In this document: positions 19,054-62,611 of the stretch, one piece after another
Numbering within the stretch: position 1 is the stretch's first letter
Layout: every line of letters starts with the position of its first letter
Source: Euglena gracilis
Lineage: Eukaryota
DNA: 64,000 nt
Assembly (NCBI GenBank): GCA_039621445.1
Contig: CP154954.1
Location: 19,826,642-19,890,641 of the forward strand
Direction: 5' to 3'
Notes under the pieces: generated by a model
Told to the model about the DNA's origin: nothing
Database searches by the model: none
Seen by the model: the letters and a program-made list of their open reading frames with translations, nothing else
Translations under genes and position numbers: made by a program

Positions 19054-23580
<4,527 letters not shown>

Positions 23581-34900: not shown

Positions 34901-36180
34901 TTTTCAAATCACACATGCAAGAACACGTTGTTTCCATCGGGGATTGGACGGAGATACCTTTCGATTTGCCTGCAGGTACTTCGTTCCTGGTGGGTGGCCT
35001 GGCCTGCCTGTTTGCATGCGATGAGAAGGGCAAAGGAGGCGCCTACTCTGGGCTTGGTGTGCCGTGTTGCTTTTTTTTTTGCATGCAAAAATGTAGGTTG
35101 GTTGCCCCGTGGCCTTTCAGCGCACTCCTGGTCAGGCAGATACAGGCAGTATCTTCCAAGCTGTCGGAATGGTGTGGCTTCAAGCGGAAAAGCCCGAACT
35201 GGGAGAGTTGGGGGCTCTTCTGATGAGCAGTAAGTTGGACGAGGACAATAAGCAGTTTGCACCATCCCGCAATCTTGAGAGGGTCATCATGAACAGAGCA
35301 GCAGAGCATTTTTTTGAGTTTGAGAATTTGTTTGAAAGTTCCATTGGGCACCATTTGGGCAGCATGCAAAGCACCTGGTGTTGTCGGCTCGTTCAATCTA
35401 TGACTCTTAGGATGTGTTTCATTGAAGTTTGGTGTCCGCAACTTCTGTTTGTAATCATCGGGGGTGGGGGGTGGGTCTGGGGCTGGAGCCCCAGGGGGGG
35501 GGGATCCCAGGACGGTGGCCCAGGCTTAGATTTCGGCGCTTTGCACCGAAATTTTTTTGGAAATGCCCTTACCAGCCCGATTTTTTGGGGGGCCGGGGGG
35601 GGGTTCCCTTGCCAAGCTGGGTGGGGGGAGCCTTAAAAAAAAAAGCCTCGCGCTCATGTCATTGTCCAGTTTACAATAGCCACCGGGGAGTTGCTTAAGC
35701 TGAAGGACACCCCATCTCTGGGGGGTCCAGCCAGCCAGCCAGCAGCCTTTTCCACCCTCCCCCCATCGACAAGTTACCCATTTATTTTCCAGCCACCCGA
35801 AGTGCCGCCCGAAGTAACGGTGGTGCCAAAAATTGGCCTAAATGATATCATTTTTTTTGCAGTTTTGGGGTAATTTTGCAGTTCCGTTTTTTTTTTCCTT
35901 TTTGGTGCCTGGTTTGTTCCTGGGTTCAACCCTGTGGGGGGGGGGGCAGCCCCCATATTCCAGCCCCTCAGCTCGACCCCCCCCCCGCAGGGGGGGTGGT
36001 TAAGTGACGCTCTGATTGTCGCCCGACCCGGTCACACGCAGCACCCGACCCAGGTCATGCCCTCCCCATCCCGCAGGGGGGCTCCTGCTGCTGCCCGGCT
36101 GCTACAGCGGCTTCATCCTGCTGCAGTACCTGCGGGGCGTGCCGGGCTTCTCCCCCAACCAGCTGCCGCACTTCGAGTGA
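31977..36180 (+). CDS. TMEM230/TMEM134 (DUF872)-like small membrane protein
   Basis: Exons: ATG 31977-32012; ~32497-32642; 32812-32849; 33924-33963; 34496-34602; 34976-35056; 36077-36180 (TGA). All joins are in frame at GT/GC-AG. The C-terminus ...PKKTVAVSAMMLLVGTSFLVGGL...LGGLLLLPGCYSGFILLQYLRGVPGFSPNQLPHFE resembles the family's two TM helices plus PG-x-Y...G-x-x-GFS...P-x-F tail. Confidence 0.8.
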
Positions 36181-38644: not shown

Positions 38645-41600
38645 ATGCCGGTATGTGTTCATTACTGGTGTCGTCTTTTTCGGTGCATCTCTCAAGCGTT
38701 GGAATTTTTTTAAAGTCTGGAAAGCTCCAAATATCAATGATTTGTGCAGCTGATATCCAGCACTCTTAAGGAGGGATCTTGCCAGGATGTTTATGTGTCC
38801 TCGTTGCTTGCACAGGGGAAGAAGAAGGGAGCGAAGATGTCCTTGGGCGATTTCCTGGGCCCCCCGCAGCCAACGGTGTGTAGAACAGCCCATCACTGAA
38901 CTTGTGGTGACTGAAGATGGTTGGATGGAATGGCACGACAGCAAGAATCTGCTCCCTCCCACCTCAACCAATGTCGAACTCGGGCAGTAGCAGTAGCTGA
39001 TCCTTTCAAGAACCCTGGGTATGGAAAAATGAGAGCACATGTGCGGGTTTTATTCCACAGGAATAGGTGGCGCCGTTGAGAACAAACATCTCTGAGAAAT
39101 TCATCTGCAAAATGGCCTTAAATGTTAATTAAGAAATTAAATGTTAATGTTGATGTCAAATGTTAATTAAAAAGGCAAAAAATGCCATACGTGCAGCCTG
39201 CCAAGTTTATTTAAAAGCAAATTGTCTTCATCAAATCATCTTTGTTACCTGAACTTGAAGCCCCATGGCTTACGATGGGTATCCTGGTTGACCGGGGGGG
39301 GGGGGGGTCAGGGCCCCCTTTTTCCAGGAAGCAGCCGGGACCGCCAAAAAGCCCAAGTTTTTCCCAGCGCTTTTCATCCCAAATTTTATCTTTTGGGGGG
39401 CAAACATTTTGCTATAAAAATAGTTCTCCAACCGCATTTTTGTCCATTTTGGATTCAACATTTTTCAGCTGGGCGTTTCAAACTAAACCAGAATGAAAAT
39501 TGGGTCATTTTGGCGATGTCACTGTTTAGCTGGTGGATGGAATATTGGAGCTCCCCACTTGACCACGCCAAACCCTGTTCGCACCACAGGAGCATTCCGT
39601 TGAGGTCGAAGAGGCTCCCCTTTCGGCAGACCCGCTGCTGAAGTACAGCTCCTACTTCACCAACGAAGGAGGTATGGGCAAACCTTTCCGTCCGATCCCA
39701 ATTGGTTGAAGGTTGGAACAAAAGGTGGGTTTCTCTGAAGACATCTACTGTTGGCCAGATGACAATGGCAATGATGATGTGTGCCGCTTGCGGTTCCACA
39801 TAGTTTTCGCATATTTTCAAGTGAACGTTCTTCCACAAATCCGCAATTGACCTCCCAGAAAAATCGACCCAAGAAGCTTTTTCAAGGGTTGGTATCTCCC
39901 CCCCGAAAATTCTTTTCTGCCAACCAGTTTGTGACAACAGCACCAGAATCAAATACCTTTTCCCACATGGCTGAAACAAGATGTGATCAAACCGTTTCTT
40001 AAGGAACCCGAGGGGGGGGGTCCACTGGCTGGCCATTTGCTAGACACTGGTGAAAATGGCCAAACTAGACCCCCCTTCCCAATCCAATCCGAGGTCCCCC
40101 CCCTGACTGAAAAAAAAAACTCCTCCAGCACGGCGCACTGAGGTGAAATGAGGACTTAATGTGTTTCTTTTTTGGCTGATTCTGTTCAAAAAAAAATTCC
40201 AAAATGGCCAAAAATGGGCATTTTGGCTATTTTGGAGGTCAGAAAATTTTCCAGCATTTCGCACTGGAAGAAAATTATCCACTAGCTAGCCCTGCTAACG
40301 GACTCCTCCCCCCGGGTTCACTGGGATCCCCACTAGCCAAATTTCTACTAGCTGCAGTCCAGCCCATCCCCCCGGGAGGGTAAACCCCCCCCCCAAATAA
40401 CACACCCCCCCGGTGTGTTATTTGGGCACCCGAACTGGGGCCCCAGGGGGGGGTGTGTTATTTGGGGGGAGTGTCATTTTTACATGGAAAACCAAAGGAA
40501 AACAGGGGGGGTGTGTTATTTGGGCGCTCGAAATCGGCCCCCGAGGGGGGGTGTGTTATTTGGGGGGGGGGGTGTGTTATTTGGGGGGGGGTGTTATTTG
40601 GGGGGGGGGTTTACTGCATACCTTTCAGCAAATGCCTGGATGTGACCCTCCCAAGGTTTGCCAAGGTCTCTGAAGATATGTCTTTGAAAAATTGCAGTGA
40701 GCAAAGTCATGTAGCTGTGTCTCTCACATGCATGTGGAACTTCAACGTATGAGAGAGCCTAACACTTCAAAAAAGAGCGAAGTGGGTGCCACGAAGGGGG
40801 TGGCAATATCCCCCCAGGGCCAAGGATGGCCTCCTCGCCCTCCAAAATCAGAACGGGGAGGCAAATGGTGCCCGGAACGTGGGTGCAGTGGAGCGGTGGT
40901 GCACTCGGTGGGCATTCACCCCTGCGGAACTCCAGTGCCTTCCCCAGTGTGCCGATTCCAAATCAGGGGCAACGTCGGCTGGGCTCTTCCGGGGAACTCA
41001 ATTGTGCAGCCAACTTACAATGACCCATCTCTTGCCTTTTGTATTCGCTGGTCTGTCTGGAGACAGTTTCCCAGGAGCGATGTGTCCAAAATTTTGCTGC
41101 AGGCGATTTCGAAATTTCCTGCACTGTCTCGGGTTTTATTTAACAAGGTGTCCGCTTTCAGCACTCCCGATGACCCGACCCCTGGTGCCCTCAACATCGT
41201 CGTGGTCGTGGGGGTGGAGGCCCGCGTTCTTTAGGGCACCCAGATGGGGGTTTTGTCGACATTCTTTTTTGTGAGTGCTGTCATTTTTAGGGTGAGGATA
41301 TTGTTTGGATAGGGATCAGGGTGAGGGTCTGCCGTCAGGAAAGAAGTGGATCGAAATCAGGTGGAAGGTTTGGCCTGATATAGAATTTATAGACACCTAA
41401 ATTTACGCACCTATTCAAGGTCCAACAGTTTTGATCTTAACCTATTCCATACCATAATCCGAACCTTACCTCTCAGAAATGACCCAAATTCTAATCCAGC
41501 AAGGAGGATGGCAAATTTGGGTTTGTGGCAGTATTTTAGGGCTGCCAGTTTTCATCAAAATCCATCGATGGGAGTGGTGAACAATTAACGGGGTTATTTT

Positions 41601-44600
41601 GTGTGATGTTAGCGTGTTTTTTGGACAAAGGTGCGGGAAGGTGACCTTTTTTTGCAAAGTTATTGTAATCGCCCATCAGGTCTCGGTGGAGATTTTGCAA
41701 ATGTCGGTTTGCAAAGGATTCCTCAAAGGATTTGCTGGAAGCATCAACAGAATTAGGTCGGCTTTGTTTGGCAGTATTCCAATCGTGTAAGGGTCCCGGC
41801 ACATCCTTCTTTTCACATTGAATGCATAAATTGGGGTGCCTCTCCATGCAGACTGCCACGGCTACTATGCCGGAGATGAGCTGTGGGACGAGGCTTTCTC
41901 TTCAACCCATCAGAGGCACACACACACACACACACAGACACACATACACACACACACACACCAATGTTTCATGATTCTGGGCCATGGCCCCCAGAGACCC
42001 CATCTTTTTGGCCGTGGGGTGTTCGCCTGCCGACCACTGGGCCGGGTTCGACCTGAGGGTGTGCCTCCCTTGGCCCCCGAAGCTTCCGGTCCACCCCCTG
42101 TCGCCCACTGGTCTGGGCCATCACGGCATTCACGTCAAACCCGGGCGAGGCCACCCACCCACCCCACTGGGCCAAGGCCTCCGGGGGACAAGCTGGTGCA
42201 GGACCAGGACTGGACCCGGGTGACGGCGATGTACAACCACATCGCGCTCATCTTCGAGCGGGACCGGGAGCGGAGCACGAGCGTGGGCCGCTGGGGTGTG
42301 CCCCATGTGCGGCGGAGCGGCGCGAATTTGTTTTTGCCCGGGCAGCGTCGGAGGTGCAACACAGGGGGTCCAACTGAGGGCACAAGACAAACATTAACTC
42401 AACCGAGTTCTTGTGACCCAGATTTTCAGCAATAAACTCCAAGAATAATTGTGTGGGATTTGAAATTTCGGCAATGTTCATAGCCGAAATGGAATTTGCC
42501 TTGGGATCCTACCACACTTCACCAATCGTCTCAACAAGAATTTCGGAGTTAAAAAGTGCATTGCCCATGGATTTGGCAGCCATGTTGGTTTTGGTTTAAA
42601 TCTGGTGCTTTTGGTGCTTCCATCTGATCGGCTGCCGCAGGAACCCACCCGACGTTCATGCAGCTGCTGTTGAAGCTCTGGGAGAGGTATGTTGCTGGTT
42701 TCTCACTTGTCCTTCCAGTCGGCAATTTATGGGTCGATGCCCACCCATTTTTTTTGCCTTTACTGGCCGTGTGGGTCGTTGCAGTGCCGTTGATTCTGCT
42801 CGCTTTTCGACCTTGCGACGTTATTTGCCCCTGGAATTCTGTTCGATTCTGTGCCCTCTGGGATGGCAGAATTGGCTGATTTGGCGACGCTTATGATCAC
42901 CCCAAAGCTCCCTTCCAGACCCGAGTTATCCAGCCAGCCAGCAAGGCTCTAAATTGGATGAACTTGCCAATCCCCCCAACTTTCAACACTGCCATTTCGC
43001 CAAGGCGAGTTCTTGGTTCCAAAATATGCCGAAGTGAGTGTTTGGGTTGAAAAAAAATATGTTGCAAAAGTATCTCGAAAACTTACCCCCAAATGGAGGT
43101 GTTTCGTAAAGCAGGGATCCAATGGCTCGCAATTTTTCTCCCGCAAATGGGGTTGTGCTCAAGGTGATAATCCGCGGTTATCATTCCCTATCTGACCCAG
43201 GGGGGTCGAGCGCCAGGAGGGCGTCCTCCTTTTTCCGGGTGGTGAGGTTTCTCTTACCATAAAGAGATGAGAAAAGCGCAGCAAAGACCCCCTAAAAGTG
43301 TCTTAATCTCCCCAAACATCCAAAGGGAAATGTGTTGCCATTGTTTTCGCATTTTTGTGCTTTTTTTGTGCATTTTTCGAACTTTCCAAAAAATGTTCAT
43401 TTCTGCGCATTTATCGCATTTTTTTGCACTTTTTTTTGATTTCTTTCAGCGCATTTTTTTTTTGCCATTTTGGCACATTTTTTTGTGATTTACCCAGTAT
43501 TTCGCATTTTTGACCATTTTATAATTTTTTTCGATATTTTTTGAAACTGATATTTTCTTTATAATTCCATATAATTCCCGTAAATTTGTTGCCATTTTTT
43601 GCATGTTTTGGGGTAATTTTGCATTTTTTTTCCCCTCCAGATTTTGCAGATTTTGCATATTTTTGCGCTTTTTTGCACACTTTGCGCATTTTTTTTTTGC
43701 GGGGCTGGGCTAGCGCATCCACCTCCCCCCCCCCTGAACCAGGGGTTTTTTCCAGTCGTGGACCCCCAGGGGGGGGTAGGGTGGGTGGGTCCGGCCGAGC
43801 CCCCCCCCCCGGGGGGGGTCCCCCGGAGGGTTGTGGGATATACTTTTCGGCGCCAAAGGCGCCGAAAAAGTGCTATTTTAGCACTTTTCGCGATTTTCGG
43901 CCATTTTTTGTGGGTACCCCGGGGGGGCCCCCCTCCCCCCCCCCCGGTCTTAAAAAAACCCCTGCCCTGAACGTCCTGATTTTTTGAATTTTCGGGAAAA
44001 TTTGCCATTTTTATGTGTTCAACGATGTATCCTAATTTTTGAGACATATTCTTTTCACAGTGCACGATCCTGGTTTTGCGGCTTATTTTGGACCCTCCCA
44101 CCAGAAAAAATTTTGGGCCAAAATTTTCAGCGAAAATCCCAAAAGGGTGACCCTCCTTGTGATTTTCAGCAACTGACCCAAAAGGTCTAATTTCGGGGTG
44201 GGGTTTACAGGAGATCCCACAGGTTTCTTTTTTTCCCTTCTGAAGATGGACGTTTCGTTGTTGATATTGTTATTGCACAAAAGAAGGGTGCAAAGAAGAA
44301 CATATTAAATGCAATGTTGTGAACCCGCGATGCTTGTTTTTTTGCTTTCTTTTCTCCCGCGCAGACTACGTTGGATGCTGGACCAAGGGGTCCTCACCCC
44401 CGAGTGCAAGCAAGCCAGTCGTCGGCTGTTCGACGCGGTGTGCTCCACAACCCAGACCGAAAGGAACGCCCCGAGCGTGCGAGGCACTTTTGTGTTTATC
44501 CAGAGGAAGAAAGGGTCGAAGCCAGTGCAGCGCCTCCGCCAGACGGGACCCCAGCCAGTCCAGCCAGCTAGTTGCGTTTTTCAAGCCCTGGACGCCCTCC

Positions 44601-50500: not shown

Positions 50501-51678
50501 CACATTCAAACCACTATCCCAAACCATTACCTGTGCTTTAATATGCCACACTCATCTGAAAGGCCTGTGGCTGGGATTCGGGCCACTGCGGTTGCACAGA
50601 CAGTTTGCATGGTTCTCCGGCAGCAATGTGTGACGCATTCTATATGCACTGTTTCTGTCTTGTTCGGGTCTCCTAACCTTCTTCGCTTCATTCTTTGAGA
50701 TATTTCTCCACAAAAAATATCCTTCAAAAATCAATTCCAACGGCAGAAGGTGCCAAAGGAAATTTTGGCACCACTGGAAAAATGAGAAAAGCTGACAAAG
50801 GGGGACCAAACCAACGCTTCCCGCATGCCCTTTTGGCCCTGGTTATTTAGGGCTTTTTCGAAGATTTTCGAGTATTTTTTTTAAAAAAAATACGGCTGCT
50901 TCGCTTCCCCTTCCCCTTTCCAAGGATGAAGGCTTTTAAGGCATTTTTTTAAATAGATTTTTTGAAGACTTTTTAAGGTTTTAAAACTTGAAGGGTTTTC
51001 AGCTGTTTTTTTTTGTTCTTTTTTTTTGAAACGTGCAATGATTGTGCTTGCGTGTTTTTTTTAAAAGAAAAATGTAAACCCAGTTCAAGACATCCACAGT
51101 GTTCGTGAAATGTTGTTGCATAATGGAGATTTTTTTTTCGCAGACATGAATTTTTTTGATCTTTATCAACGTAAATGTGTACAGTCCGACATGGTGAAAA
51201 AATATATCGTCATGCTTTTCTTAAAGGCAATTTAAGTCATTTCATTTTTCAAGGCTTTGGAGCCTTGAAGAGGTGTAGGGCCTAAATTTCTCCCTCGACA
51301 GTCTGCGTACTTCTTTTCCAGGATGGCCGCACCCCCGGGGGTGTTGTAAGCAGGTGGAGGGGGGGGGGGGCGTTTTCATCAACCCCCAGAGGCCTCCCCA
51401 AAACCCTGCGGCAGGGTTGGATATAAGGACTGAAGGAGGGTGTGTGGAATTTAGGCGGCCCCACCCCTCCCCCCTCCTCCACCTCTTGAAACCTTGGGGT
51501 AGAATGCCCCGCCAAAAAAAGATCAAATTTTCTTTTCCGGCGCTTTGTGCCAAAAACATTTGGGAATTTCGACATTTTTTTTACCCCCCTGTCCCGCTTG
51601 GCCCGGGGGGCGGGGGGTTCGACCCCCTCACCTGCCATATCGAACCCTGAGCTGCAGACAGAAGCCAGCCATCTCCGA

Positions 51679-53080
51679 ATGGCGGTGCTGTGCCTGAGGG
51701 GCGGGAAGTCTTGCTGGCGCACGAAACTGAGTGGTCCGGTGGTCCAGTGGTCCTCTCGGCTCGGGTTGACCCAGGCCAATTTCCCTTTTAAGACAGACTC
51801 CAATTTTTGGACACCCGGCGCTGGGCGGTGTGCTATCCCCCCACCAGTCAATCATTTAGTCACTGGCCGACCCCCCCCCCCGGGGGGGGGGGTGACTGGT
51901 TTTTCCAGAGTGACTGACTGGTTTTTGGCCCGGACCCCCCCCCCCCCCCGGGGGGGGGGGGGGGCAAAAAACCGCCAAAATGACCCGGCGCCGAAGGCAC
52001 TGGAAATTTTTATTTGTCCTTTTTTTTACATGTTTTGGGTCAAAATTCCCTTTGGATTGCAGAGTGGCCGACCCCCCAGGGGGGGGGGGTTGACTGACTG
52101 GTTTCACAAAAAAAAGTGACTGACTGGTTTTTCAAAAGTGGAGTGACCCCCCTCCCCCCTGGGGGTCGATAAAAAAGGTATGCCCCCCACCCATCCCCGC
52201 CCTTCAGGTCTCAACATCGACTGCAGCGCCTGAGGGGTTTCTGTCAGATCCCCACCGTGAGGTTGGAGGGCATCCGTGGCTGCGCCAAACAGGAGGGGCC
52301 GAAGCGCTGAGGCGACCTGAGGGCAGTCCGTTGTCTCGGCCGGATGAGTTTGGATTGCGAAAGGTATTGACTCCACTGAGCTGCTTTTTTTTTTGTGAGC
52401 GTGCTGCATACCTCGGTTTTCTTTCGGTTCAATGGTGTATTGTTTAATTGTGCTGGAGTTCAGAGTGTGACGCATTGCCAGGAGTGGACCAAGTGCTTCG
52501 TGCCGGACGCCCCCGAAGTTGCTTTGGCGGACGTTTCGGAACATCTTCAAAAGCACGTGTATGATGTCCTGGTGGACGTGCGCGATGCGCGGCTACCAGG
52601 CTTCTGCTTAAGGGATTGCAGTACCCCCCCCCCCGGGGGCTGGACTGCAGCTAGTCCAAATTTGGCTAGTGGGATTTCTAGCAGACCCCCCCCCCGGGGT
52701 CTGCTGGCAGGGCTAGCTAGTGGAAATTTTTTTCCAGTGACCGGCGTGAAGCGCCGGAAATTTTTGGGGGGACCCCCAAAAATGGCCAAAAAAGCCCGTT
52801 TTTGGCCATTTTTGGGAATTTTTGGACCAAAATCAGCCAAAAACCTATTAAAACCCTCATTTCCACCTCGGCGCACAGCGCCTGAGGAAAATTTTTTCCA
52901 GTTGGGGGGACCCCCGGACCCCCCCTCCCCCGGCGGGAGGGGGGGTCTAGCTAGTCCATTTTTCCAGTGTCTAGCCGATTGGCTGGCCAGTACCCCCCCC
53001 CGGGGGTCTTTAAGCAAAAGCCTGGCGGCTACCACAATCATCCCTCCATCCACAATACCAGGGATTGGCCAAAGTTGTGC

Positions 53081-53116
<36 letters not shown>

Positions 53117-56100
53117 GGTGCCAACCCTGGAATGAAAGTCTGATGGATCCAATAGCAAGATAAGCCCGACAAATGTCTTTGAAATGTTTTTTTTAAATAT
53201 TTTCCTGTCAGAAAGGTTGAACATAAGGGCGCATGTGTTATGAAGGCAAGCCGAACGTATCTAACTGCTGGTCAGACTTTGTGGGGGGTGGGTTAGTATC
53301 CCGTTTTCGCTCAATTCCCAGCCCAGGGTTTCCGACTCGGCTGCTGATCTCTGTTGCATGCTACGGTGGTGTTCATTGGCCCGTGCCAACCCCCCTCCCT
53401 CCCCCTGCCATCGCCGGCCTCCCTCCCAGGCCCACATCGTGTGCTACACCCACGCGGAACGGCTCAGCCGGGAGGACGTCGACCGGGTCGCGGCGTGGAC
53501 AGAGCACACCCACGGCCCCTCCGCCCAGCAGCCGTCTCTTCTTTCCACCACGGTGCCCGTTGGCCCCTCGCGGGCTGAGGGCTGGGCCGCCGACTGCTGA
53601 ATGCGCCGCCGTCTTCTTCCTGAATCTGCGGCGTGTGCGGCGGATGGACCGGAAGCAGCCCTGGCGACTCCTTTCCCCACCCACATGGTGGACTCGGGCG
53701 AGGGGTTGGTGAGAGGTAGGGTGTTGTTTGTGTAGAATGGGGACATTCTTAATTGCAGGCCAGGGTTTAGGGCAGGGTAAAGGGGAGGTACGGGATCAGG
53801 GTTTGCGACAGCGTTGGGGTTGGGTGGGACACCAGGCCCCCACCTACTACCGGACCAAGTATGGACATGGATGCGCGCCCAACAGCAAGGATGTGCCACG
53901 CCGTCCAGCCGGCGGGCCACGCGTCGCACGTGCCCACGCTCCGCACCGTTTCAACCGATACATCCGGGACCTAACTCCGGTGTCCAGCCCCGACAAGGTC
54001 CGGCATCACCGCCAACAACAGTCACCGGCCTGCGGGCGCATGGGTGTCGAACGGGGGTCATCCCGGACCGCCGGAAACGAGGGAACGCCGTGCCCGGACC
54101 CCGAGGGGCCCCCAGCCCCCGGCCAGCGCCGCCCTCCGGCCCCTGCGGCGGGCGGTGGCCGCCGCGTGCCGGGCCGGCGGGGGCGCCGAGGCGCTGGTGG
54201 CGGGCCTCCCCAACGCCGGCAAGAGCAGCCTGTTGCACCCGCTGGCCCGCCGGTTCCTGCAGGCGGCGTGGAAGCGGAGGTCCGAGGACCACATGCCCCA
54301 GGTCCAATCCGGAACTCGTGATGGGGGACCCCCTGGGTGGGGGGACCCCCGATCTCAAGAAAATCCCTGACATATGTGTATTGCATTGTAGATCACCTCC
54401 TCACCCCCCGTGGGAGGTGGCCCAGCCAGTCATAAGCCATTTTCCACCTTCCCCCATCGAGGGATTTTAATTTCTTTCCGGTTGCATTTCGGGCGGCTGG
54501 ATAGTGGCGGAGTTTTTGCCGTGGTGGGTTCCAACGTGGCAACATGCCAAACTTCATAAAAGTGTGTCGAAAATTGCCCAAGCTGTTTCAATTTTGGGTC
54601 TGAAAATTCATATCTTAAAATTTTGATTTTTGGGGGGGCTTGTCTGTTGTCTTAATTTTTTTGGCACCCGGTAAGACCCCTGGGGCGGTCAGCCTAGATC
54701 CAGCCAGCCCAAATTTTCTAGCCTCTGATCTTCCTTCCCCCCTGCCTGTTTCATTTCTTTTCTCCTCAGAGCTTGCACCCAAATCAAAGTTGTCCTATTT
54801 GGTGCTGCCTTGCAAAAAGAATATAAATGCAATATGGTTGACATGGGCATGTTTCACTGAAGATGCCTTTACTCAGTATTTCAGACCGATTGACTGGTCG
54901 GTCAGAAATGCCGACCAGTTTTTCTTGGCTCAATAACCCAGGCGAGGGATTTGGCCAAAATTGTGAAGTGGCTCCGCTCCTGCGCACCAAAATTAAATGC
55001 GGACATTTCTCTTCGCCTCTTCGACCAATTTTCCCAACGTGGCTGCCAAGCACCTCCAATGGTGCATCCCGACAAATCCGACAAATTGTGACAGATCGCG
55101 ACAACACGTATTTGGCCTCCTTGAGATGGGGGTTCCATCAAATCCCGACAAAGCCCAACCAATCCCGACAACAGCGCCAAAATTTGTGACCACTGATGAA
55201 GTTGCCAAGTCAGGATTTGGTTGGTTTTCTGTTTTGCACAGTTTTTTCTTTGTGAAACCACATAAAGAATTTGCATGAAAAAAAGCTTCGACACACTTCA
55301 GATATGGCCAGGACCCAGCTCCAACGTGCAGAGCACAACAAACCCCGAAAAATCCCGACAAATTCTGCGGCCAGCACCCAATTATCAGACGGTATGGAGG
55401 TGCATGGTGGCTGCCTAACCCGGTGGGAGGTGGTGGCCAGGTTGCCTCTGAGGGAAAAGCTGCCTCTGAGGGAGTCTTTGCTGACTGGTGGGTGGGCGAA
55501 TGAAAGGAACACCCCCAAGGGTCGGCCAACCATCAATGATCCCGAACGCATTAACTTCAGGTGGTTTTTGGCCAAACATCGTCCCTTCTGCCGGCGTTGA
55601 GCCTGGGATGGGTCAGGGGCCCCGCCGCCCCCGTCACAGGTCGCCTGCAAGCCCGGCACGACCACCTCCGTCCTGCCCTACCCCATGCCCAGTCCCTGTT
55701 TTGCTGTTCCCCCACTCCCAGAGAGCGAAATGGGGGGAAGGGAATTTGTGGTACCGCCCATCCGAAACCACGCTGTGTTCAGAATCAACAAGGGGGTACA
55801 TGGGCTTTGGGAGCCCACTTGTTGTTGTTGTTCTTGTTGTTGTTGTTGCAATTGCACAAGTGGTCCAAAATTAATATATATTTTTGAGGCTTTATTAGTG
55901 GTGATTTTTGAGACAAAAGGAGAATAAGAAAAACAGCGCCCACAAAGTGGAGGTGTTTGTACAGCATTCCTGAGCACATATGTACATGTGCATATACAGC
56001 ATATGCAGCATGTCTGAGAGGGTCAAAGAAAGTGTGTCAGGGTATTGCACCATGAATTGAAGGGTATTGCGCCATAAATTCAACGTGTACACACATTCAC

Positions 56101-59100
56101 GTAATCTGCAAACCCGTCGTCTGTGTGGTCAGTTTGTGAAATCGCACAAGTAATTCACCACTTCGGACCACTTGCACGACTGTGGGAACGTCTGTTCCCG
56201 TAATTACACAAGTGGAATATTCCCGCAGTTGCCCAAGTGGTTGGTTTGCACATTTTGCAACTGCTTTGTGTGTGCAGTTGCGCACGGAGACCGACAGGGA
56301 CAATTTTTTTAAAAAAAATCAAAGTGCAAGCTCGCCAAGCAGCACACATGGTGCACGTTTGAAAGTTGTGTGTGTCGAAAGACCGGGAAAAAAAGCCCGC
56401 GTTCCATGTTCCATGGCTTATGCAGTGCATCCAACCAAGTCAGGCGGCCCATCTTGCACTTGAAACGGCATTGGTTTTGCGGAATTGTGCAAACGGACCG
56501 TTTGTGTTTTTTGAAAGTCCCAACAAATTGCACCTAAACCTGTTAATTTGATCAGGATGTGGTCTGGTGCCCGGACGGTAGAAGGTGGTTCAAAGATTTT
56601 GACCAATACGGTATTCATGAGGCAGGTGTCCCAAACAGCACACCCAGTCTGTGTGCTTGGGAAACTCCCAACGGCTGCCTCATCAACTTGGGGTGGCGTG
56701 GGGCAGACGGCATCGAGCCCTCCCCAACAACGTACACTTAGACGCCGGGGAACAACGTTCGCATGGGCAGTCGGGGCCGAATCGCTCGGGGGCCGGGCGG
56801 CCCCTCTCCGTCTTCCCGGGGGGTGAATGCCGGCCCGCACTGCCGGGCCTGCCCCCCAGCGTGCCGGCCGCAGTGGCTCTGGGGCATCGACACCCCCGGG
56901 CTGGACCCCCCGGCGGCGGCGTTCCACGCGGACCCGGAGCTGGGCTCAGGGGCTTTCTTAAGCTGGGGGGGTCCTACCCCCCCCCCGGGGGGGGTCCAGC
57001 CAGCCAGCACGTTTTATCCAGCCAACAACTCCCCCCCCCCGTGTTCGCCGAAATGAAGTTGGGGCTGGGACAAAAAACCGCCAAAATTTCTTTCGAAAAA
57101 AGTTGGGGGAAGGGGCCAAAAAAGGTATTTTTTGAGCGGATTTGGGGCTTTCACCCGATGTTTTTTTTTGAAAAGTCCCAACCCAGCTGAAATTGCACTT
57201 TTCTTTTTGCCGTTTTTCGGGTTTCAGACAGGTCCAGCTGCCTGCCCCCCCCCCAGACCCCCCCCAGAGGGATTCCAACCATCACCTTTTTTCTCCGGCT
57301 GCACCTTTTTCCAGCCGGCCCATGCCCCCCCCCCCCGGGGGGGTCCATAAGAAAGCCCCTGGCTTGGCTTCAAGCTGTTCCTCACGGGCCACCTGCGCCG
57401 GGGCAGGGCCCCGTGTGCGGTGGACGTTGCCGACTACGTGCTGTGGAAGTGCAATTGGGTGCGTCCCCTGTGGCCTGGCCCTCGGTGGGGGCTGGAATGT
57501 CGCGGCAGGTTTTATCCGTTGGAGGCTGGCAGGCGCCGGAGGAGGAGGAAGAGATCTGTGTGGTGCGCTCCGGTGCAAAAGCTATGACGTCCAATATGTT
57601 CATGTGGGACGAGTAACCCACGTGTGCACGCAAACCAATCACCCCCCACCAATTGAAATTGCGCTTCAATTTTGGATTTTGGTATTCGTTTGGGTTTGCA
57701 TCATTTTGGGGACTGTGTTTAATGGATGGCCACCTTTGGAAATTGCCATTTTGTTGTTTTCACTGCAAAATTGCTGGAAAGAGCAACAATAAAAACCCAT
57801 GGGTGTTGTGCTTTGCCCCATTGGGATTTGTCTTTTTTTAATTTAACGGCTGTCAATCCATGCAAAGTTTGGAAAGGGTCACCGTGTCTTCCAGGGTTCA
57901 CCCATCCGACCAATACAACTACCAGCGATGAGAACCCCAAGCTCCAATGTCTTTTCCGGGCTTCTGCTTAAGGAAGTGGGGGGGTTGCTATGGGCAGGCA
58001 GGGAGGGGGGGGAGGCAGGGGGTTGAAAGTGGGTTGGCAGTGCTATGGCACACCCCCCGGTGCTGAAAGACGCCAGGAGTCCGAAAACGACCATTTTCAA
58101 AAGACATGGGTCGGAGGGAATTTTCAAGGCTTGGTTGGCAGGCACCGATGTCCGAACGCCCCCTCCCCGAGGGGGGTGCTCGCAATGAGCAGGCACCCCA
58201 TAGCACCCAACCCCCAGGGGGGTTGGCAAACAGAAGCCTGGTCTTTTGTTATCTTATAACTCAGCCATTCTCCCTAAGTCAGCTTAATTGTTCCTTCGAC
58301 ATTTGTAAGCTGAAGACGATCCCAAGGGTTAATCGAGCTACGATTGCTTTCTCGTTTGCTTGCTCTACTCAGCTTCGCCACCATTTCTATGTTCCAATTT
58401 TAAAACTCCGTTCATCCCAGTGCTTGTTGACTCCCACGGTGGATCACTTCGGGTTTTCCCTCCTCCAATCTCCGTCCACCACCCATTCACTCAGCCATCT
58501 GCACGCACAGGGAGAGGCAAGAACGTGCACACACATACAGAAACCCACATGCACACACATATACACACAGACACATACATACACACATAATTGCATACAC
58601 ACAACAACACATATGCAGACGCGTGCATCCACACAGACATGCATACACAATCACACACATATGCAGACACATGCACACACGCATACATATATACACACAT
58701 ACCGACACACACATACATGCATTCACACATCCACACATACAGGCACATGCATACACATATACACACAGGCACGCACATATGCATAAACACACATACAGAC
58801 ACAAACATCCACACAGGTGCGCACAGACACAAGGCTTTTCCTCTTGGCATTTTTCTTTTTTGTTGCATCCATGCATCCAATGCATTTCGGAAGCGGGGGG
58901 TTGCTGCCAGGGGCCGACGGATGACATCCAGCTGATCCTGCGGCAGTTTATGGGAGAGGCCGACCACGGTGTGGCCTGGCACCCCATGCAGCCACTGCTC
59001 CAATTTCCCTCCCTCCCAAGGTTGTGGAAAACATTTTTTCCAGTTGTATACAACTTTCATGGAACACAACCAGTGTGCATCACATACTGCACATGTCACA

Positions 59101-59807
59101 TGATGTTCACTTGCTGTGTTTGCTGACACATCGGCGTCCACGCAGCTCCGCATGCGTGTGCATTGCACACATGCGTTGATGGGACCCTTTTGGCCCTCTC
59201 TCCCTGCTGCCCATGCCCGGGCACCGCCTCCCTCCCTGCCGCCCGCAGGCGACCCGCGGGCGGCGGCCCGGGCGGCGGAGTGCTTCCTCGGGTTGGCCGC
59301 AGAGCACGGCTTCGACCGCCTCGTGCTGGACCCACTGCCGCTGCCCGCCGGAGCCCCCGGCCAGGCTTTTTTTTTTTAACTCGGAAGACCCCCCGAGGGA
59401 GGTCCCACGCCCCCACAGCGTATGTCCTACGTCCAGGGTATGTCCCTACAGCGCTGGAATTACCCCAGAGTTGCTCACCGGGCGAGGGGGAGCCACACAC
59501 GAGCACTGGTGTCAGGGGTCCCTGGCCACTCACCACACAAATTGGGCCAGAAGCGAAGAAGTTAGTGCCGGCCATAAACCGACAAGAAGCCTTGGTGCAA
59601 CTGAGGGGGTACTGGGTGGGGGGGGGGAACCCTCCGGGGACCTTAAATAGGAAGCCTGCTCCCGGCACCTTGACGCGGCCGCTCCACTTCCCGGGGGAGG
59701 GGCCGATCATTGCCACCAATTTCCGGCCGGAGAGTTTCCGTGGGCCTCGGCTAAGGGTGGTCGCCCCCCCCCCTCTTTTGGTTTCCCTGCTGTTTGAGCA
59801 ACGCTGA
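51679..59807 (+). CDS. Circularly permuted ribosome-biogenesis GTPase (RbgA/YlqF/MTG1 family), probably organellar
   Basis: Exons from ATG 51679 (Arg/Leu/Ser-rich N-terminus): 52208-52362; 52482-52593 (DVLVDVRDARL); 53030-53082 (PQSSLHP); 53430-53509 (HIVCYTHAE, G4 position); ~54182-54301 (ALVAGLPNAGKSSL, G1); 55640- (VACKPGTT, G2); ~56865-56943 (IDTPG, G3); 57367-57458 (GFKLFLTG...ADYVLWKCN); ~58905-58968 (PTDDIQLIL); 59249-59358 (AAECFL...RLVLD); 59664-59807. The G4-G1-G2-G3 order is diagnostic. Confidence 0.88.
52597..53024. mobile_element. hAT-like MITE forming non-conventional intron ~52594-53029
   Basis: TIR caggcttctgcttaa / ttaagcaaaagcctg. Perfect 8-bp TSD gcggctac at 52589-52596 and 53025-53032. 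Lies inside the DARLP motif. Confidence 0.9.
56947..57361. mobile_element. hAT-like MITE forming non-conventional intron 56944-57366
   Basis: TIR caggggctttctta / taagaaagcccctg. TSD gctgggct / gcttggct (7/8). Removal gives DPELGFKLF. Confidence 0.88.
57957..58240. mobile_element. hAT-like MITE (intronic copy)
   Basis: Termini cgggcttctg / cagaagcctg. TSD gtcttttc / gtcttttg (7/8). Confidence 0.8.
59362..59658. mobile_element. hAT-like MITE forming probable intron 59359-59663
   Basis: Termini caggcttttt / aggaagcctg. TSD cccccggc / ctcccggc (7/8). Removal keeps the GTPase frame open to the stop at 59807. Confidence 0.75.
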
Positions 59808-61918
59808 GACATCCATTTGCCCAGGTTCAAAACGGTTTGAAAGGCAGGGCGGAGACGCAAAAAAGGATGTATCTGTTAATGTTTTCATCGAGTCAAGAAA
59901 GATGAACAGGGGACACAGAGGCAGCACCAGGTTGTTGATCTCGAGTTGGCGTGCCACGCGCTCGGGTGTGTGGCCATGGATGACCCAGCGGGTGTCCAGG
60001 GGGTGTACATGAAATGTCCCTTGGACATTTCATGTACCTCACCCCACAGTCAGCCTCCAGTCCCAAGGCCTCTCTCAGCCCATTGGGTTGTGATCGTGTG
60101 TGTGCACACTGGCACTTCCCCACCCATGTAGCAATGCCCCAGCTAGCTCTACCGCAAAAAAATTGAAGCCAGTCCTGTGAGAGTGCACTTTGTGACAATA
60201 AGCTTTATCTGGCTCCTTTCATATCATAAGGGATCAATCAGGCAAGAGATTTTCTTTTGTTCTCAAGGATTGGCCTCTTTTTGCACAGCACGTTGCAGCA
60301 GAGCAGGGGGTAGGGCAGGGGCATTCAGGGGAGGGGAACGCAAATGCGTTTGTATTTTTTGATTTTGGCAAAAATTGCGTTTTTTTTTTGGCGCTTTTTT
60401 TTTGCATTTTTCCCCGCGATTTTCGGATTTTTGTTGGAAAATTTTTGACCATGAAAAATTCCTTATTTTGTCCCCGATTTTCCCCGAGACCTAAAATTTT
60501 GTCAAATTTTTTTGTCATTTATGCTTTCTGGGGCAAAAAAAATGCTTATGCTAAGTCCTTTCTTTTTTATTTTTAAGTCCTTTTTTATTTTGTTTTTATT
60601 TTTATGCTAACTCCTCTCCAGTGGAAAAGTGTACATCCTGGGGGAGCTCCTAAAGGATTTTACATGCAATTTTTTGTGTTTTTTTTTTTGCTTTCTTTTG
60701 TGTTTATTTGCGGTTTTTTTGCGGCGCGGTTTTTTTTTTTGAGGGTCCACGTTGTGCCCCCCCCCCTTGGGGCATTGCTGCGTAGGGTGGGGCTGCGCCA
60801 GTGTTCACACACCATCACCTCTACCAATGGGCTGGCAGAGAGTATAAGGTTGCTGATGACTCAAATCCCTTGATGTCAATACTAAAGGTTGCAATGCAGA
60901 AGTTTAAAATCCACTGCATTGATCAAGATTCAATAATGTCTTTGCCAAGGCATCGACGTCGGATTGCCTGTGCAATACATATGCAGCCACTTCAATGAAT
61001 AATGTCTGGCACCTTCGCCGAAGGCGATTCGGGATGTCCTGTGTGAGGATCCCATTTGCCAGCAGGCATTCTTGTCGGATTTGGTTCAGCTTGAGAAGGG
61101 GGCCACACCACCCCCGTTCCCCCCTTGTTCCACTTCCCCACACGACCCATTTTGTTTTGCCCACGTTTTTGTGCGGCCCCCCACGGGCACCAGGCCCCCC
61201 GCCCCGCCGCAGCCCCCCACCGCCCCCCCTCACCAGCCCCCGCATCCCCACCGCCCTGTCTGTCAAAGCCCCTGTTTCTTTAGATGTTCTCATGGGTCGC
61301 TTTCATCATTCGCGAAGTACACGCTGATTTTTGCCTCAATTTTTTCTGTCTGGTGCATTTTCTTCCACCATTCCATTTCTTCTCCCCAACCACCACCACA
61401 TTCTTCAGAATTTCCACCATGTTACTCTCCAAAATTCTCCTCGAGGTTCCAAAAATCAACCTCCTGTTTAAAAGGGGTCTTGCCCACAGGGAATCAATTG
61501 TCGGTCAGAAGTGAAGAACACATCTCCTTCTTGCTTTCTTTAAAAGTGAACCAGCGGTGCTACGCTGAGGTGTGCGTGCATACATACGTGTGTGTGTTTG
61601 TTTGTGTGGGTGGGTGGGTGGGTGGGTGGATGTGTGCATTAGCGTGAGCTGCATCCTTCCTTGGGGGTTAAAACCAGAGCCCTGTGCGAGGTTTCTGGTC
61701 TGAACCTGAAGATGACGATGCCTCGCTGGGGACTCCTCACGTGGCTGGTCTGTTCTTATTCCGAACGCAAATTGTGGCTTCTTTGCAACCTTTATCAAGT
61801 CGGCCACGGTTACGAGACTATCCAAAAGTGGAAGTGCTTTCGACTTTCTGGCCCACTGTGATCAACCCCGGCTCCACCAGTCAGCCCACTGCATGGACCG
61901 CCACCTCATATTCAATTT

Positions 61919-62243
<325 letters not shown>

Positions 62244-62510: not shown

Positions 62511-62611
62511 CAGGGTTCAGTATAAGGAGGGTTTACAGGGTTCAGGAGGAGGGGGATGCCCCCCATCCCCCCCCCTGACCCTCCCTCCACCTGCCCTTAT
62601 ATTGAACCCTG
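62511..62611. mobile_element. Short CAG...CTG TIR element (related copy 51412-51649)
   Basis: TIR cagggttcagtataagg / ccttatattgaaccctg, with the duplicated flank ggttgca. Confidence 0.7.

What the first reader, a model, noticed from the sequence alone, without database searches (positions are those of the whole stretch)
56939..59666. Two further MITE-introns with 7/8 TSDs suggest an age series
The elements 56947-57361 (gctgggct/gcttggct) and 59362-59658 (cccccggc/ctcccggc) fit N3-CAG...CTG-N5|purine exactly and restore the reading frame. With the 8/8 cases, and with introns that keep only the stem and no TSD (19132-19531, 21471-21669, 53510-53594), the window appears to show decay from fresh MITE to generic non-conventional intron.
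Basis: partly seen in the sequence, partly recalled or inferred. Interest (0 to 1): 0.75.

Follow-up and report, generated by a model that had tools for sequence, protein, structure and literature searches.

The report
Two transposon-like introns in euglenid genes
Two short transposon-like insertions sit inside protein-coding exons in exactly the form that Euglena's unusual second splicing system removes, which supports the old idea that these odd introns began as mobile DNA, but the window gives no evidence that they form an age series.

Summary
56947-57361 (415 bp) and 59362-59658 (297 bp) are CAG...CTG inverted-repeat elements flanked by 8-bp direct repeats matching 7/8. Seven such elements occur in the window against 0.135 expected from shuffles. 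I found an eighth at 57957-58240, between the two, also 7/8.

Removing each element plus one repeat copy (3 nt before CAG, 5 nt after CTG, next base G) joins two stretches that share a reading phase by third-position G+C. For the first element the join also runs colinear with a conserved motif of a YlqF/RbgA/MTG1-type GTPase, though that score gain is small. The host gene of the second element is unidentified.

Three or four of the eight elements lie outside recognisable coding DNA, so they behave as DNA-level mobile elements (MITEs) and not only as introns. No RNA evidence was obtained, so splicing is inferred from the published Euglena code.

The age-series reading is not supported. Repeat identity does not track inverted-repeat integrity (4 v 4, p=0.55 and 0.76), and both mismatches fall on synonymous third codon positions. 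The only signal is a modest, non-independent excess of 5-6/8 matches.

These are new members of a known, already hypothesised kind. The notable point is that the 3+5 nt splice spacers equal the 8-bp duplication.

The parts
56939..56946 (+). Left copy of the 8-bp target-site duplication of element 1 (GCTGGGCT). Bases 1-5 would be exon and bases 6-8 the intron spacer.
56947..57361 (.). Element 1: 415-bp MITE-like element with a 14/14 terminal inverted repeat CAGGGGCTTTCTTA and subterminal C-run/G-run palindromes. It has no coding capacity.
   Evidence: no Pfam hit in ORFs over it
57362..57369 (+). Right copy of the duplication of element 1 (GCTTGGCT), 7/8, with the mismatch at position 4.
56944..57366 (+). 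Predicted nonconventional intron 1 (423 nt = element + 8). It has no GT-AG at any of the 9 slid positions.
   Evidence: Geometry. G+C phase is continuous across the join. The join is colinear with the YlqF profile. Splicing itself was not observed.
56853..56943 (+). Exon of host gene 1 (YlqF/RbgA/MTG1-like GTPase) holding the DTPG (G3) motif. It ends ...FHADPELG. The 5' border is approximate.
   Evidence: (profile 175-183)
57367..57458 (+). Next exon of gene 1. It starts FKLFLTGHLRRG... and is followed by a GT...AG intron and a last exon that ends at the stop codon 57614-57616.
   Evidence: (profile 198-200)
57957..58240 (.). Third element (284 bp), not in the finding. Its termini are CGGGCTTCTGCTTAA / CAGGCTTCTGTTTGC (reverse complement), and its 8-bp flanks are GTCTTTTC (57949-57956) and GTCTTTTG (58241-58248), 7/8. 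It lies about 340 nt after the stop of gene 1, outside coding sequence.
   Evidence: (its 3' part is 73.8% like 21751-21852)
59249..59358 (+). Exon of unidentified host gene 2. It ends ...DRLVLDPLPLPAGAPG. G+C by codon position is 0.88/0.56/0.91.
59354..59361 (+). Left copy of the duplication of element 2 (CCCCCGGC).
59362..59658 (.). Element 2: 297-bp MITE-like element with ends CAGGCTT.../...AAGCCTG (11/15), a T-run then TTAA, and C/G runs as in the other elements.
59659..59666 (+). Right copy of the duplication of element 2 (CTCCCGGC), 7/8, with the mismatch at position 2.
59359..59663 (+). Predicted nonconventional intron 2 (305 nt). It shifts the frame from 1 to 0, as the G+C phase requires.
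   Evidence: splicing not observed
59664..59807 (+). Downstream exon of gene 2. It starts GTLTRPLHFPGEGPIIATNFRPESF. The 3' border is unknown.
52597..53024 (.). Sister element (428 bp, TSD GCGGCTAC 8/8) in the same GTPase gene. It splits the DARxPxSS motif.
   Evidence: joined 17.1 bits against 2.3; 33.0 against 15.1 bits without the downstream exon
21751..21852 (.). Sister element (102 bp, TSD GGCCCAAG 8/8) in a Methyltransf_24-like gene.
   Evidence: upstream exon matches profile 68-93 of 105
39995..40365 (-). Decayed copy, 71% identical to 52597-53024, without CAG/CTG termini or a duplication.

Best explanation
Both features are non-autonomous DNA transposons (MITEs) of one terminal architecture: CAGG(C/G)..., a T-rich stretch, TTAAG, then C-run/G-run palindromes. 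They make 8-bp target-site duplications.

Each inserted into a coding exon. Element 1 is in a YlqF/RbgA/MTG1-type ribosome-assembly GTPase gene, between the DTPG motif and the helix that follows it. Element 2 is in an unidentified gene.

In the transcript the terminal inverted repeats pair and bring the two ends together. The nonconventional-intron machinery of euglenids, whose components are unknown, then cuts 3 nt before CAG and 5 nt after CTG. Because 3+5 equals the 8-bp duplication, this removes the element plus exactly one copy of the duplication and gives back the pre-insertion mRNA. The insertion is therefore tolerated.

Shown here: the anatomy, its excess over chance, the coding phase on both sides, and colinearity with a GTPase profile.

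Inferred: that transposition was cut-and-paste, that the RNA is spliced at these sites, and the superfamily (hAT-like by 8-bp duplication and CAGGG/CAGGC termini).
For: Anatomy and excess over chance:
- Anatomy and coordinates.
- 7 elements against 0.135 in shuffles. All termini share one layout.
- Copies with the same 8-bp duplication lie where no coding signal is seen: 17297, 43740, 57957, and perhaps 10114. This argues for insertion at the DNA level.

Coding phase, G+C by codon position in the joined phase:
- Element 1: 0.77/0.65/0.97 upstream and 0.61/0.45/0.90 downstream.
- Element 2: 0.88/0.56/0.91 upstream and 0.62/0.59/0.81 downstream.
- The third-position maximum falls in the same joined phase on both sides.
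- The same holds for 21751 and 52597, so 4 of 4 elements with a coding signal. This is not independent of how 'coding' was called.

Homology to a GTPase profile:
- A profile built from 30 bacterial YlqF genes hits the gene's exons in colinear order: profile 27-41, 39-54, 126-148, 153-160, 175-183, 198-200.
- A scripted core of the spliced product scores 33.0 bits. The best of 200 residue shuffles scores 1.9 (76 reported).
- Across element 1 the alignment DTPG...ELG then FKL.LTG runs through the join without a gap: 4.1 bits against -1.4 for the upstream exon alone.
- TIGR03596 hits the P-loop exon (E 0.0036, 16.7 bits).

Splicing:
- No GT-AG is available at any slid position (reading).
- Both introns fold with paired ends.
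- The N3-CAG/CTG-N5/purine code was established by knock-in in Euglena (PMC12501133, passages read).
Against: - No RNA evidence: no reads were laid, and no protein from this organism's transcripts was found in the protein collections.
- Homology support at the element 1 join is weak. At whole-protein level the downstream exon adds only 1.4 bits (33.0 against 31.6). Permuting the order of the pieces loses only about 4 bits.
- Host gene 2 has no family match. Near element 2 nearly every frame is open, so frame restoration is weak evidence there.
- Neither element has a full-length relative in the window. Family membership therefore rests on about 25 nt of termini and on C/G runs.
- No transposase was found: 0 of 532 ORFs of 70 aa or more.
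- The sister element 52597 is followed by T, not a purine.
- Element 2's whole-sequence fold is no better than shuffles (z = -0.10).
Confidence: 0.72

Rival explanations
1. Age series: 7/8 elements are older than 8/8 ones, and the window shows a continuum from fresh MITE to generic nonconventional intron that keeps only its stem.
For: - A decayed copy of the 52597 family without termini exists at 39995-40365, 71% identical.
- Intron-like 19132-19531 has an 11/12 stem in the right geometry but flanks matching only 2/8.
- There is a modest excess of 5-6/8 flank matches among pairs with stems of at least 9/12: 17 against 8.4 expected.
- In both 7/8 elements the base that breaks the G/C-rich third position (T) sits in the copy that would be intronic (reading).
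Against: - TSD identity does not go with inverted-repeat integrity (p=0.55 and 0.76, 4 against 4).
- The 7/8 element 56947 has the most perfect ends.
- One difference in 8 sites is within sampling noise.
- The 5-6/8 excess includes pairs that share one end (three end at 53407) and G/C-run sequences, so the pairs are not independent.
- Two of the three cited 'stem only' introns do not fit the code exactly.
- No dating by family consensus or orthology was possible.
Confidence: 0.3
2. The elements are real insertions but are not spliced out. The interrupted genes would then be pseudogenes, or dead alleles or paralogues.
For: There is no RNA evidence. The GTPase is divergent: it has no NKxD motif and scores 33 bits against a bacterial profile.
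Against: - A strong third-position G+C signal (0.90-0.97) is kept right up to both joins.
- The frame is kept on both sides.
- The same gene carries a second element and further introns, all compatible with one open frame.
- The geometry is exactly the one shown to be spliced in Euglena (PMC12501133).
Confidence: 0.08
3. The 8-nt direct repeats come from an intron-gain process other than transposition, such as reverse splicing of a nonconventional intron RNA or repair of staggered breaks, so these are propagating introns and not MITEs.
For: The repeat length equals the sum of the splice spacers. A reversal of the splicing reaction might also produce that (inference).
Against: Elements with the same ends and the same 8-bp repeat lie in A/T-rich or non-coding DNA, where no splicing would be needed (43740, 17297, 57957). 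A decayed copy lies outside any frame.
Confidence: 0.07
4. Chance: CAG/CTG triplets with similar flanks in G+C-rich DNA.
For: 38 CAG..CTG pairs have flanks matching >=7/8, against 30 in shuffles, so flank matches alone are common.
Against: When the inverted repeat is also required, the count is 7 against 0.135 (max 1 in 200 shuffles). The termini also resemble each other.
Confidence: 0.01

Closest known systems
Nonconventional introns of euglenids (Euglena agilis/gracilis splicing code; PMC12501133, PNAS 2025)
   Same: CAG three nt into the intron, CTG eight to six nt from its end, a purine as the first base of the next exon, paired ends, and no GT-AG.
   Different: That study set aside introns with flanking direct repeats ('slidable' introns). 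In the passages I read it calls the origin unclear. Here the repeats are exactly 8 nt and abut the inverted repeat, and the same elements also occur outside genes.
MITE-origin hypothesis for nonconventional introns (Milanowski et al. 2014, PMC3935182; review PMC11282704, 2024)
   Same: [quoted passage not shown]
   Different: The 2014 paper states that no transposable element had then been identified in euglenids. Here there are concrete elements with TIR plus an 8-bp TSD, both in and out of exons. They add cases but not a new idea.
Introner elements (Micromonas, dinoflagellates, others)
   Same: Short DNA transposons whose insertion creates an intron. The duplication helps to restore the message.
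   Different: Introners supply or co-opt GT/AG sites for the spliceosome and make 3-5 bp duplications (PMC11282704). These have no GT-AG, make an 8-bp duplication, and rely on a stem-defined cut.
hAT-superfamily MITEs (such as Ds1-type)
   Same: An 8-bp duplication and termini starting CAGGG/CAGGC (hAT consensus recalled, not from a call).
   Different: There is no transposase in the window. The recalled nTnnnnAn target preference is not seen (T at position 2 in 2 of 8, A at position 7 in 3 of 8).
Merlin elements of Euglena gracilis (PMC8101967)
   Same: The only DNA transposons I found reported for E. gracilis. Both families make 8-bp duplications.
   Different: Merlin inverted repeats start with GG; these start with CAGG. 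The one E. gracilis alignment end I saw in that paper's S3 Appendix does not resemble these termini.

Membership tests
Euglenid nonconventional intron (published splicing code) | CAG at +4..+6 and CTG at -8..-6 of the intron | tested here: met
   Met for both, given introns 56944-57366 and 59359-59663.
Euglenid nonconventional intron (published splicing code) | Spacers of 3 nt (5') and 5 nt (3'), and a purine as the first base of the downstream exon | tested here: met
   Removing element + 8 nt keeps the coding phase, and 57367 and 59664 are G. The duplication makes the exact cut sites indistinguishable ('slidable').
Euglenid nonconventional intron (published splicing code) | The intron ends pair in the RNA | tested here: met
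   MFE structures pair the termini.
Euglenid nonconventional intron (published splicing code) | Actually excised from pre-mRNA (spliced reads, circular intron RNA) | not testable with these tools
   No reads were laid. No transcript-derived protein was found.
MITE (non-autonomous class II element) | Terminal inverted repeats directly abutted by a target-site duplication of fixed length | tested here: met
   8 elements, all with 8-bp flanks matching 7-8/8.
MITE (non-autonomous class II element) | Short, with no coding capacity | tested here: met
   415 and 297 bp. No Pfam family in ORFs over them.
MITE (non-autonomous class II element) | Many related copies in the genome | tested here: inconclusive
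   Termini are shared among 8 elements. Only 52597/39995 (71%) and 21751/57957 (74% over 80 nt) share internal sequence. Elements 1 and 2 have no full-length relative in the window, and no genome is held.
hAT superfamily | 8-bp target-site duplication | tested here: met
hAT superfamily | Autonomous partner encoding a hAT transposase with matching termini | not testable with these tools
   0 of 532 ORFs of 70 aa or more in the window match a transposase family. The genome is not held.
Merlin superfamily | Inverted repeats that begin with GG (PMC8101967) | tested here: not met
   The termini begin CAGG, and the CA/TG is part of the inverted repeat, not of the duplication.
Introner elements (spliceosomal) | GT/GC-AG splice sites supplied by the element or the duplication | tested here: not met
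   There is no GT at any of the 9 possible slid donor positions of either element (reading).
YlqF/RbgA/MTG1 GTPase (host gene 1) | Score over the curated cut-off of TIGR03596 (208 bits) | tested here: not met
   Only single exons could be sent: 16.7 bits, E 0.0036 for the P-loop exon. The spliced product could not be sent to the library.
YlqF/RbgA/MTG1 GTPase (host gene 1) | Circularly permuted order: DARxP and G4 region, then G1 P-loop, G2, G3 DTPG, then the C-terminal helix | tested here: met
   Colinear hits to my own 30-sequence YlqF profile. The scripted core scores 33.0 bits against at most 1.9 for shuffles.

The most novel reading that the evidence does not exclude
The 3-nt and 5-nt spacers of the Euglena nonconventional splicing code exist because they add up to the 8-bp duplication made by one class of CAGG-ended transposons. 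Most nonconventional introns would then descend from such insertions. The excision system would have been selected, or recruited from the transposon's own end-recognition, to remove 'element plus one duplication' so that any exon hit is erased at the RNA level. My searches and the passages I read in PMC12501133 did not show this 3+5=8 link in print. The 2024 review notes only 'TSD-like' repeats.
Probability: 0.4. Interest if true: 0.8.

Novelty: new member of a known kind. Interest (0 to 1): 0.5.

Why it matters
The origin and removal mechanism of euglenid nonconventional introns have been open questions since the 1990s. In the passages I read, papers up to late 2025 still call the MITE origin a suggestion.

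This window holds concrete elements that are at once textbook MITEs (inverted repeat plus 8-bp duplication, found both in and out of genes) and perfect substrates of the experimentally defined splicing code. That turns the hypothesis into something countable genome-wide. It also explains why the code's spacers are 3 and 5 nt.

The two elements of this finding add cases and a third neighbour. They do not by themselves date anything.

Tried and rejected
RNA and DNA reads:
- The look-up of sequencing runs listed 14 probable DNA holders, 6 small-share contig runs only guessed to be RNA, and 4 raw RNA runs. No RNA holder is on record.
- Read laying gave nothing. One call was stopped for a simple repeat, one by a filter, and the third by the cap.
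- So there is no evidence on splicing, expression or empty sites.

Whole genome: none is held.

Protein searches with the P-loop exon ORF:
- No hit among longer proteins.
- Against 1.84 billion representatives there was one irrelevant tandem-repeat protein.

Library and structure searches on single exons:
- Pfam and NCBIfam: only weak P-loop and Methyltransf_24 hits, and nothing for gene 2.
- PDB sequence search with the two exons flanking element 1: nothing useful.

Other searches:
- Metagenome scan with the first 20 nt of element 1: one hit in a bacterial-looking contig without any element features, so chance.
- Earlier findings of the scan: none.

Rejected readings:
- Merlin origin, because of the termini.
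- Spliceosomal introner, because there is no GT-AG.
- Pair 33168-35548 (8/8 flanks), which looks like two copies of an internal hairpin motif and not one element (reading).

Supplements of PMC12501133 (Datasets S7, S8 and the SI figures on sliding distance) were not opened. They may show whether an 8-nt repeat peak was already seen.
Full report
WHAT IS THERE

Reading the sequence confirms the finding's coordinates.

Element 1 (56947-57361, 415 bp) begins CAGGGGCTTTCTTA and ends with the exact reverse complement of those 14 nt. It is flanked by GCTGGGCT and GCTTGGCT.

Element 2 (59362-59658, 297 bp) begins CAGGCTT and ends AAGCCTG, with 11 of 15 terminal positions complementary. It is flanked by CCCCCGGC and CTCCCGGC.

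In both, the base five nt after CTG is followed by G. Each predicted intron folds with its ends paired. Element 2 as a whole is no more stable than shuffles (z = -0.10), while element 1 has z = -3.54.

MORE THAN CHANCE

I scanned for CAG...CTG pairs 40-3000 bp apart with 8-nt flanks matching at least 7/8 and ends matching at least 11/15. The scan finds 7 elements: 10114-10285, 17297-17601, 21751-21852, 43740-43964, 52597-53024, and the two of this finding. The mean in 200 dinucleotide-preserving shuffles is 0.135, with a maximum of 1.

Flank matches alone are not unusual (38 against 30). The combination with the inverted repeat is what is unusual.

Allowing CGG/CCG variants gives 16 against 1.64. 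Roughly seven of those have A/T-run flanks or poor ends and are probably chance.

The relaxed scan, and a profile of the 14 termini, revealed an eighth good element inside the finding's span. It is 57957-58240, with ends CGGGCTTCTGCTTAA and CAGGCTTCTGTTTGC (reverse complement) and flanks GTCTTTTC/GTCTTTTG (7/8). Its 5' end is nearly identical to that of 52597-53024, and its 3' part is 73.8% like 21751-21852.

All termini share one layout: CAGG, C or G, a T-rich run, often TTAAG, then runs of C and G that form palindromes.

THE HOST GENES

No Pfam family reaches its cut-off on any of the 532 stop-to-stop ORFs of 70 aa or more in the window, and none is a transposase. The exons are short.

Reading 52300-57620 suggested a circularly permuted GTPase of the YlqF/RbgA/MTG1 type. 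To test this I fetched 30 bacterial YlqF genes, built a profile and ran it over all + strand ORFs of 51500-58000.

The best hits are weak one by one but colinear:

| Window coordinates | Profile positions | Note |
|---|---|---|
| 52554-52598 | 27-41 | |
| 53026-53073 | 39-54 | |
| 54185-54253 | 126-148 | P-loop, 12.1 bits |
| 55640-55663 | 153-160 | |
| 56886-56912 | 175-183 | DTPG |
| 57387-57395 | 198-200 | |

NCBIfam TIGR03596 also hits the P-loop exon (16.7 bits, E 0.0036), far below its 208-bit cut-off.

A core of the spliced product, assembled only inside a script, scores 33.0 bits. The best of 200 residue shuffles scores 1.9, with 76 reported.

THE JOINS

Across the sister element 52597-53024 (8/8 duplication), the upstream exon ends ...YDVLVDVRDARLP and the downstream one starts LPQSSLHPQYQ. 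Joined by the rule they align to the profile's DvviellDaRiPlssrNp at 17.1 bits, against 2.3 for the upstream exon alone. Dropping the downstream exon lowers the whole-protein score from 33.0 to 15.1.

Across element 1, the upstream exon ends ...GIDTPGLDPPAAAFHADPELG and the downstream one starts FKLFLTGHLRRG. Joined, they align without a gap at the join to lDtPGilwpkf...edeevglkLavtgaik. This scores 4.1 bits against -1.4, and the gain in the whole-protein score is only 1.4 bits. Homology support for element 1 is therefore colinear but weak.

The stronger internal evidence is codon-position G+C. In the joined phase that gives these peptides, G+C at positions 1/2/3 is 0.77/0.65/0.97 before element 1 and 0.61/0.45/0.90 after it. 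A sliding track shows the frame-0 signal running up to 56943 and resuming at 57367.

For element 2 the values are 0.88/0.56/0.91 before and 0.62/0.59/0.81 after, again in one joined phase. That needs the 305-nt (2 mod 3) removal. This matters because near element 2 almost every frame is open, and one frame runs open through the element. So 'restores the frame' alone proves little there.

Gene 2 (exons about 58905-59012, 59249-59358, 59664-) matches no family.

Element 21751-21852 likewise splits a Methyltransf_24-like exon. The upstream exon matches profile positions 68-93 of 105.

Neither predicted intron has GT at any of the nine slid donor positions, so the conventional spliceosome could not remove them precisely.

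IN AND OUT OF GENES

Four of the eight elements (21751, 52597, 56947, 59362) sit in coding sequence with the phase conserved across the join.

Elements 17297 and 43740 have flanks with stops or low G+C and no coding signal. Element 10114 is undecidable. Element 57957 lies about 340 nt after the stop codon of the GTPase gene.

A 71%-identical relic of the 52597 family at 39995-40365 has lost its CAG/CTG ends.

Elements with the same ends and the same 8-bp duplication outside exons argue that insertion happens at the DNA level. That makes these MITEs which become introns when they land in exons.

MECHANISM

The Euglena knock-in study (PMC12501133; passages read) showed four things:
- CAG and CTG are required.
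- The 5' spacer must be 3 nt.
- The 3' spacer is 5 nt, with +1 tolerated.
- The next exon prefers to start with a purine.

It excluded introns flanked by direct repeats as 'slidable', and its discussion calls the origin unclear, with MITEs as a suggestion.

In the elements here the spacers are simply the inner parts of an 8-bp duplication: 3 nt of the left copy and 5 nt of the right. Cutting there removes the element plus one copy and returns the original message, whichever way round the element lies. This step is inferred. I obtained no RNA data.

SUPERFAMILY

An 8-bp duplication with CAGGG/CAGGC termini is hAT-like (consensus recalled). The recalled hAT target preference is not seen.

Merlin elements with 8-bp duplications are reported in E. 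gracilis (PMC8101967, passages and one supplement search). Merlin repeats begin with GG, and the alignment end I saw there does not resemble these termini.

The superfamily is unresolved.

THE AGE SERIES

With four 8/8 and four 7/8 elements, inverted-repeat integrity does not differ. For 15-nt matches it is 12,13,13,14 against 13,14,11,11 (p=0.55). For gapped 40-nt matches it is 27,25,27,24 against 25,25,26,25 (p=0.76). Element 1, a 7/8 case, has the longest perfect run (14).

Both mismatches are at synonymous third codon positions (CTG/CTT Leu; GCC/GCT Ala). In each case the T is in the copy that would be intronic.

For 247 CRG..CYG pairs with stems of at least 9/12, the flank-match histogram is 34,54,64,49,21,14,3,3,5 for 0..8 matches. 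The expected values are 25.7, 64.8, 74.2, 50.7, 23.0, 7.0, 1.4, 0.18, 0.03. There is a large excess at 7-8 and a modest one at 5-6 (17 against 8.4). The latter includes pairs sharing an end and G/C-run sequence.

Of the cited 'stem only' introns:
- 19132-19531 fits the code (ACC-CAG...CCG-CCCCC|G, stem 11/12, flanks 2/8).
- 21471-21669 has spacers of 4 and 6 nt.
- 53510-53594 is CGG...CCG followed by T.

The exon flanks of the last two fit their protein profiles.

Decay from MITE to plain nonconventional intron is plausible, but the window does not demonstrate a graded series.

PRIOR WORK

The MITE hypothesis dates from Milanowski et al. 2014 (PMC3935182, passages read). The 2024 review notes TSD-like repeats at the junctions (PMC11282704, passages). 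The 2024 E. gracilis intron survey and the 2025 diplonemid paper repeat the hypothesis.

Five full-text searches found no paper that ties the 3+5 spacers to an 8-bp duplication, or that names a transposon family for these introns. Subscription journals and unopened supplements may hold it.

VERDICT

The MITE-intron reading is well supported by sequence, but splicing is unproven. The age series is not supported.

Noticed in passing
57957-58240: A third MITE-like element between the two reported ones, with CGG...CTG termini and flanks GTCTTTTC/GTCTTTTG (7/8). It lies downstream of the GTPase stop codon. CGG is one of the variant motifs that the 2025 study found spliceable.
   Followed up: partly
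52470-57616 (+): A divergent YlqF/RbgA/MTG1-like circularly permuted GTPase gene. It carries at least three nonconventional-type introns (52594-53029, 53510-53594, 56944-57366) and three apparent GT...AG introns (53083-53429, starting with a GT microsatellite; 54303-55639; about 57459-57533). It has THAE where NKxD is expected.
   Followed up: partly
21408-21932 (+): A Methyltransf_24-like gene whose last exons are split by the 8/8 element 21751-21852 and by 21471-21669. The latter has spacers of 4 and 6 nt in place of 3 and 5.
   Followed up: partly
39995-40365 (-): A relic copy, 71% identical to element 52597-53024, with mutated termini (CAA in place of CAG) and no duplication.
   Followed up: partly
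62511-62611: A 101-bp element with a 14/15 inverted repeat CAGGGTTCAGTATAA. Its flanks (GTTGCAAC / GGTTGCAG) match only if shifted by one base, so the true ends may be CCAGGG...CCCTGG. 51412-51649 has similar CAGGGTT.GATAT ends with flanks matching 5/8.
   Followed up: no
16129-16286, 33029-33124, 33346-33411, 51865-51981 and inside most elements: Recurrent palindromes of a C-run followed by a G-run (8-12 of each). They are the main sequence shared between elements, and clusters of them suggest nested or decayed elements at 33-36 kb and 51.3-52.2 kb.
   Followed up: no
60004-60036: A perfect 15-bp-stem palindrome (GTACATGAAATGTCC, 3-nt loop) in the region downstream of gene 2.
   Followed up: no
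58490-58830; 61922-62032; 53083-53111: A long imperfect CA-rich repeat between the two genes, a pure (GT)n of about 110 bp, and a (GT)n at the start of a conventional intron.
   Followed up: no
33168-35548: Identical 8-mers AAATTTTT next to near-identical hairpin motifs CGGCGCAAAGCGCCG, 2.4 kb apart. A related hairpin (CCGGCGTGAAGCGCCGG) lies inside element 52597-53024, so these are probably internal motifs of two separate elements.
   Followed up: no
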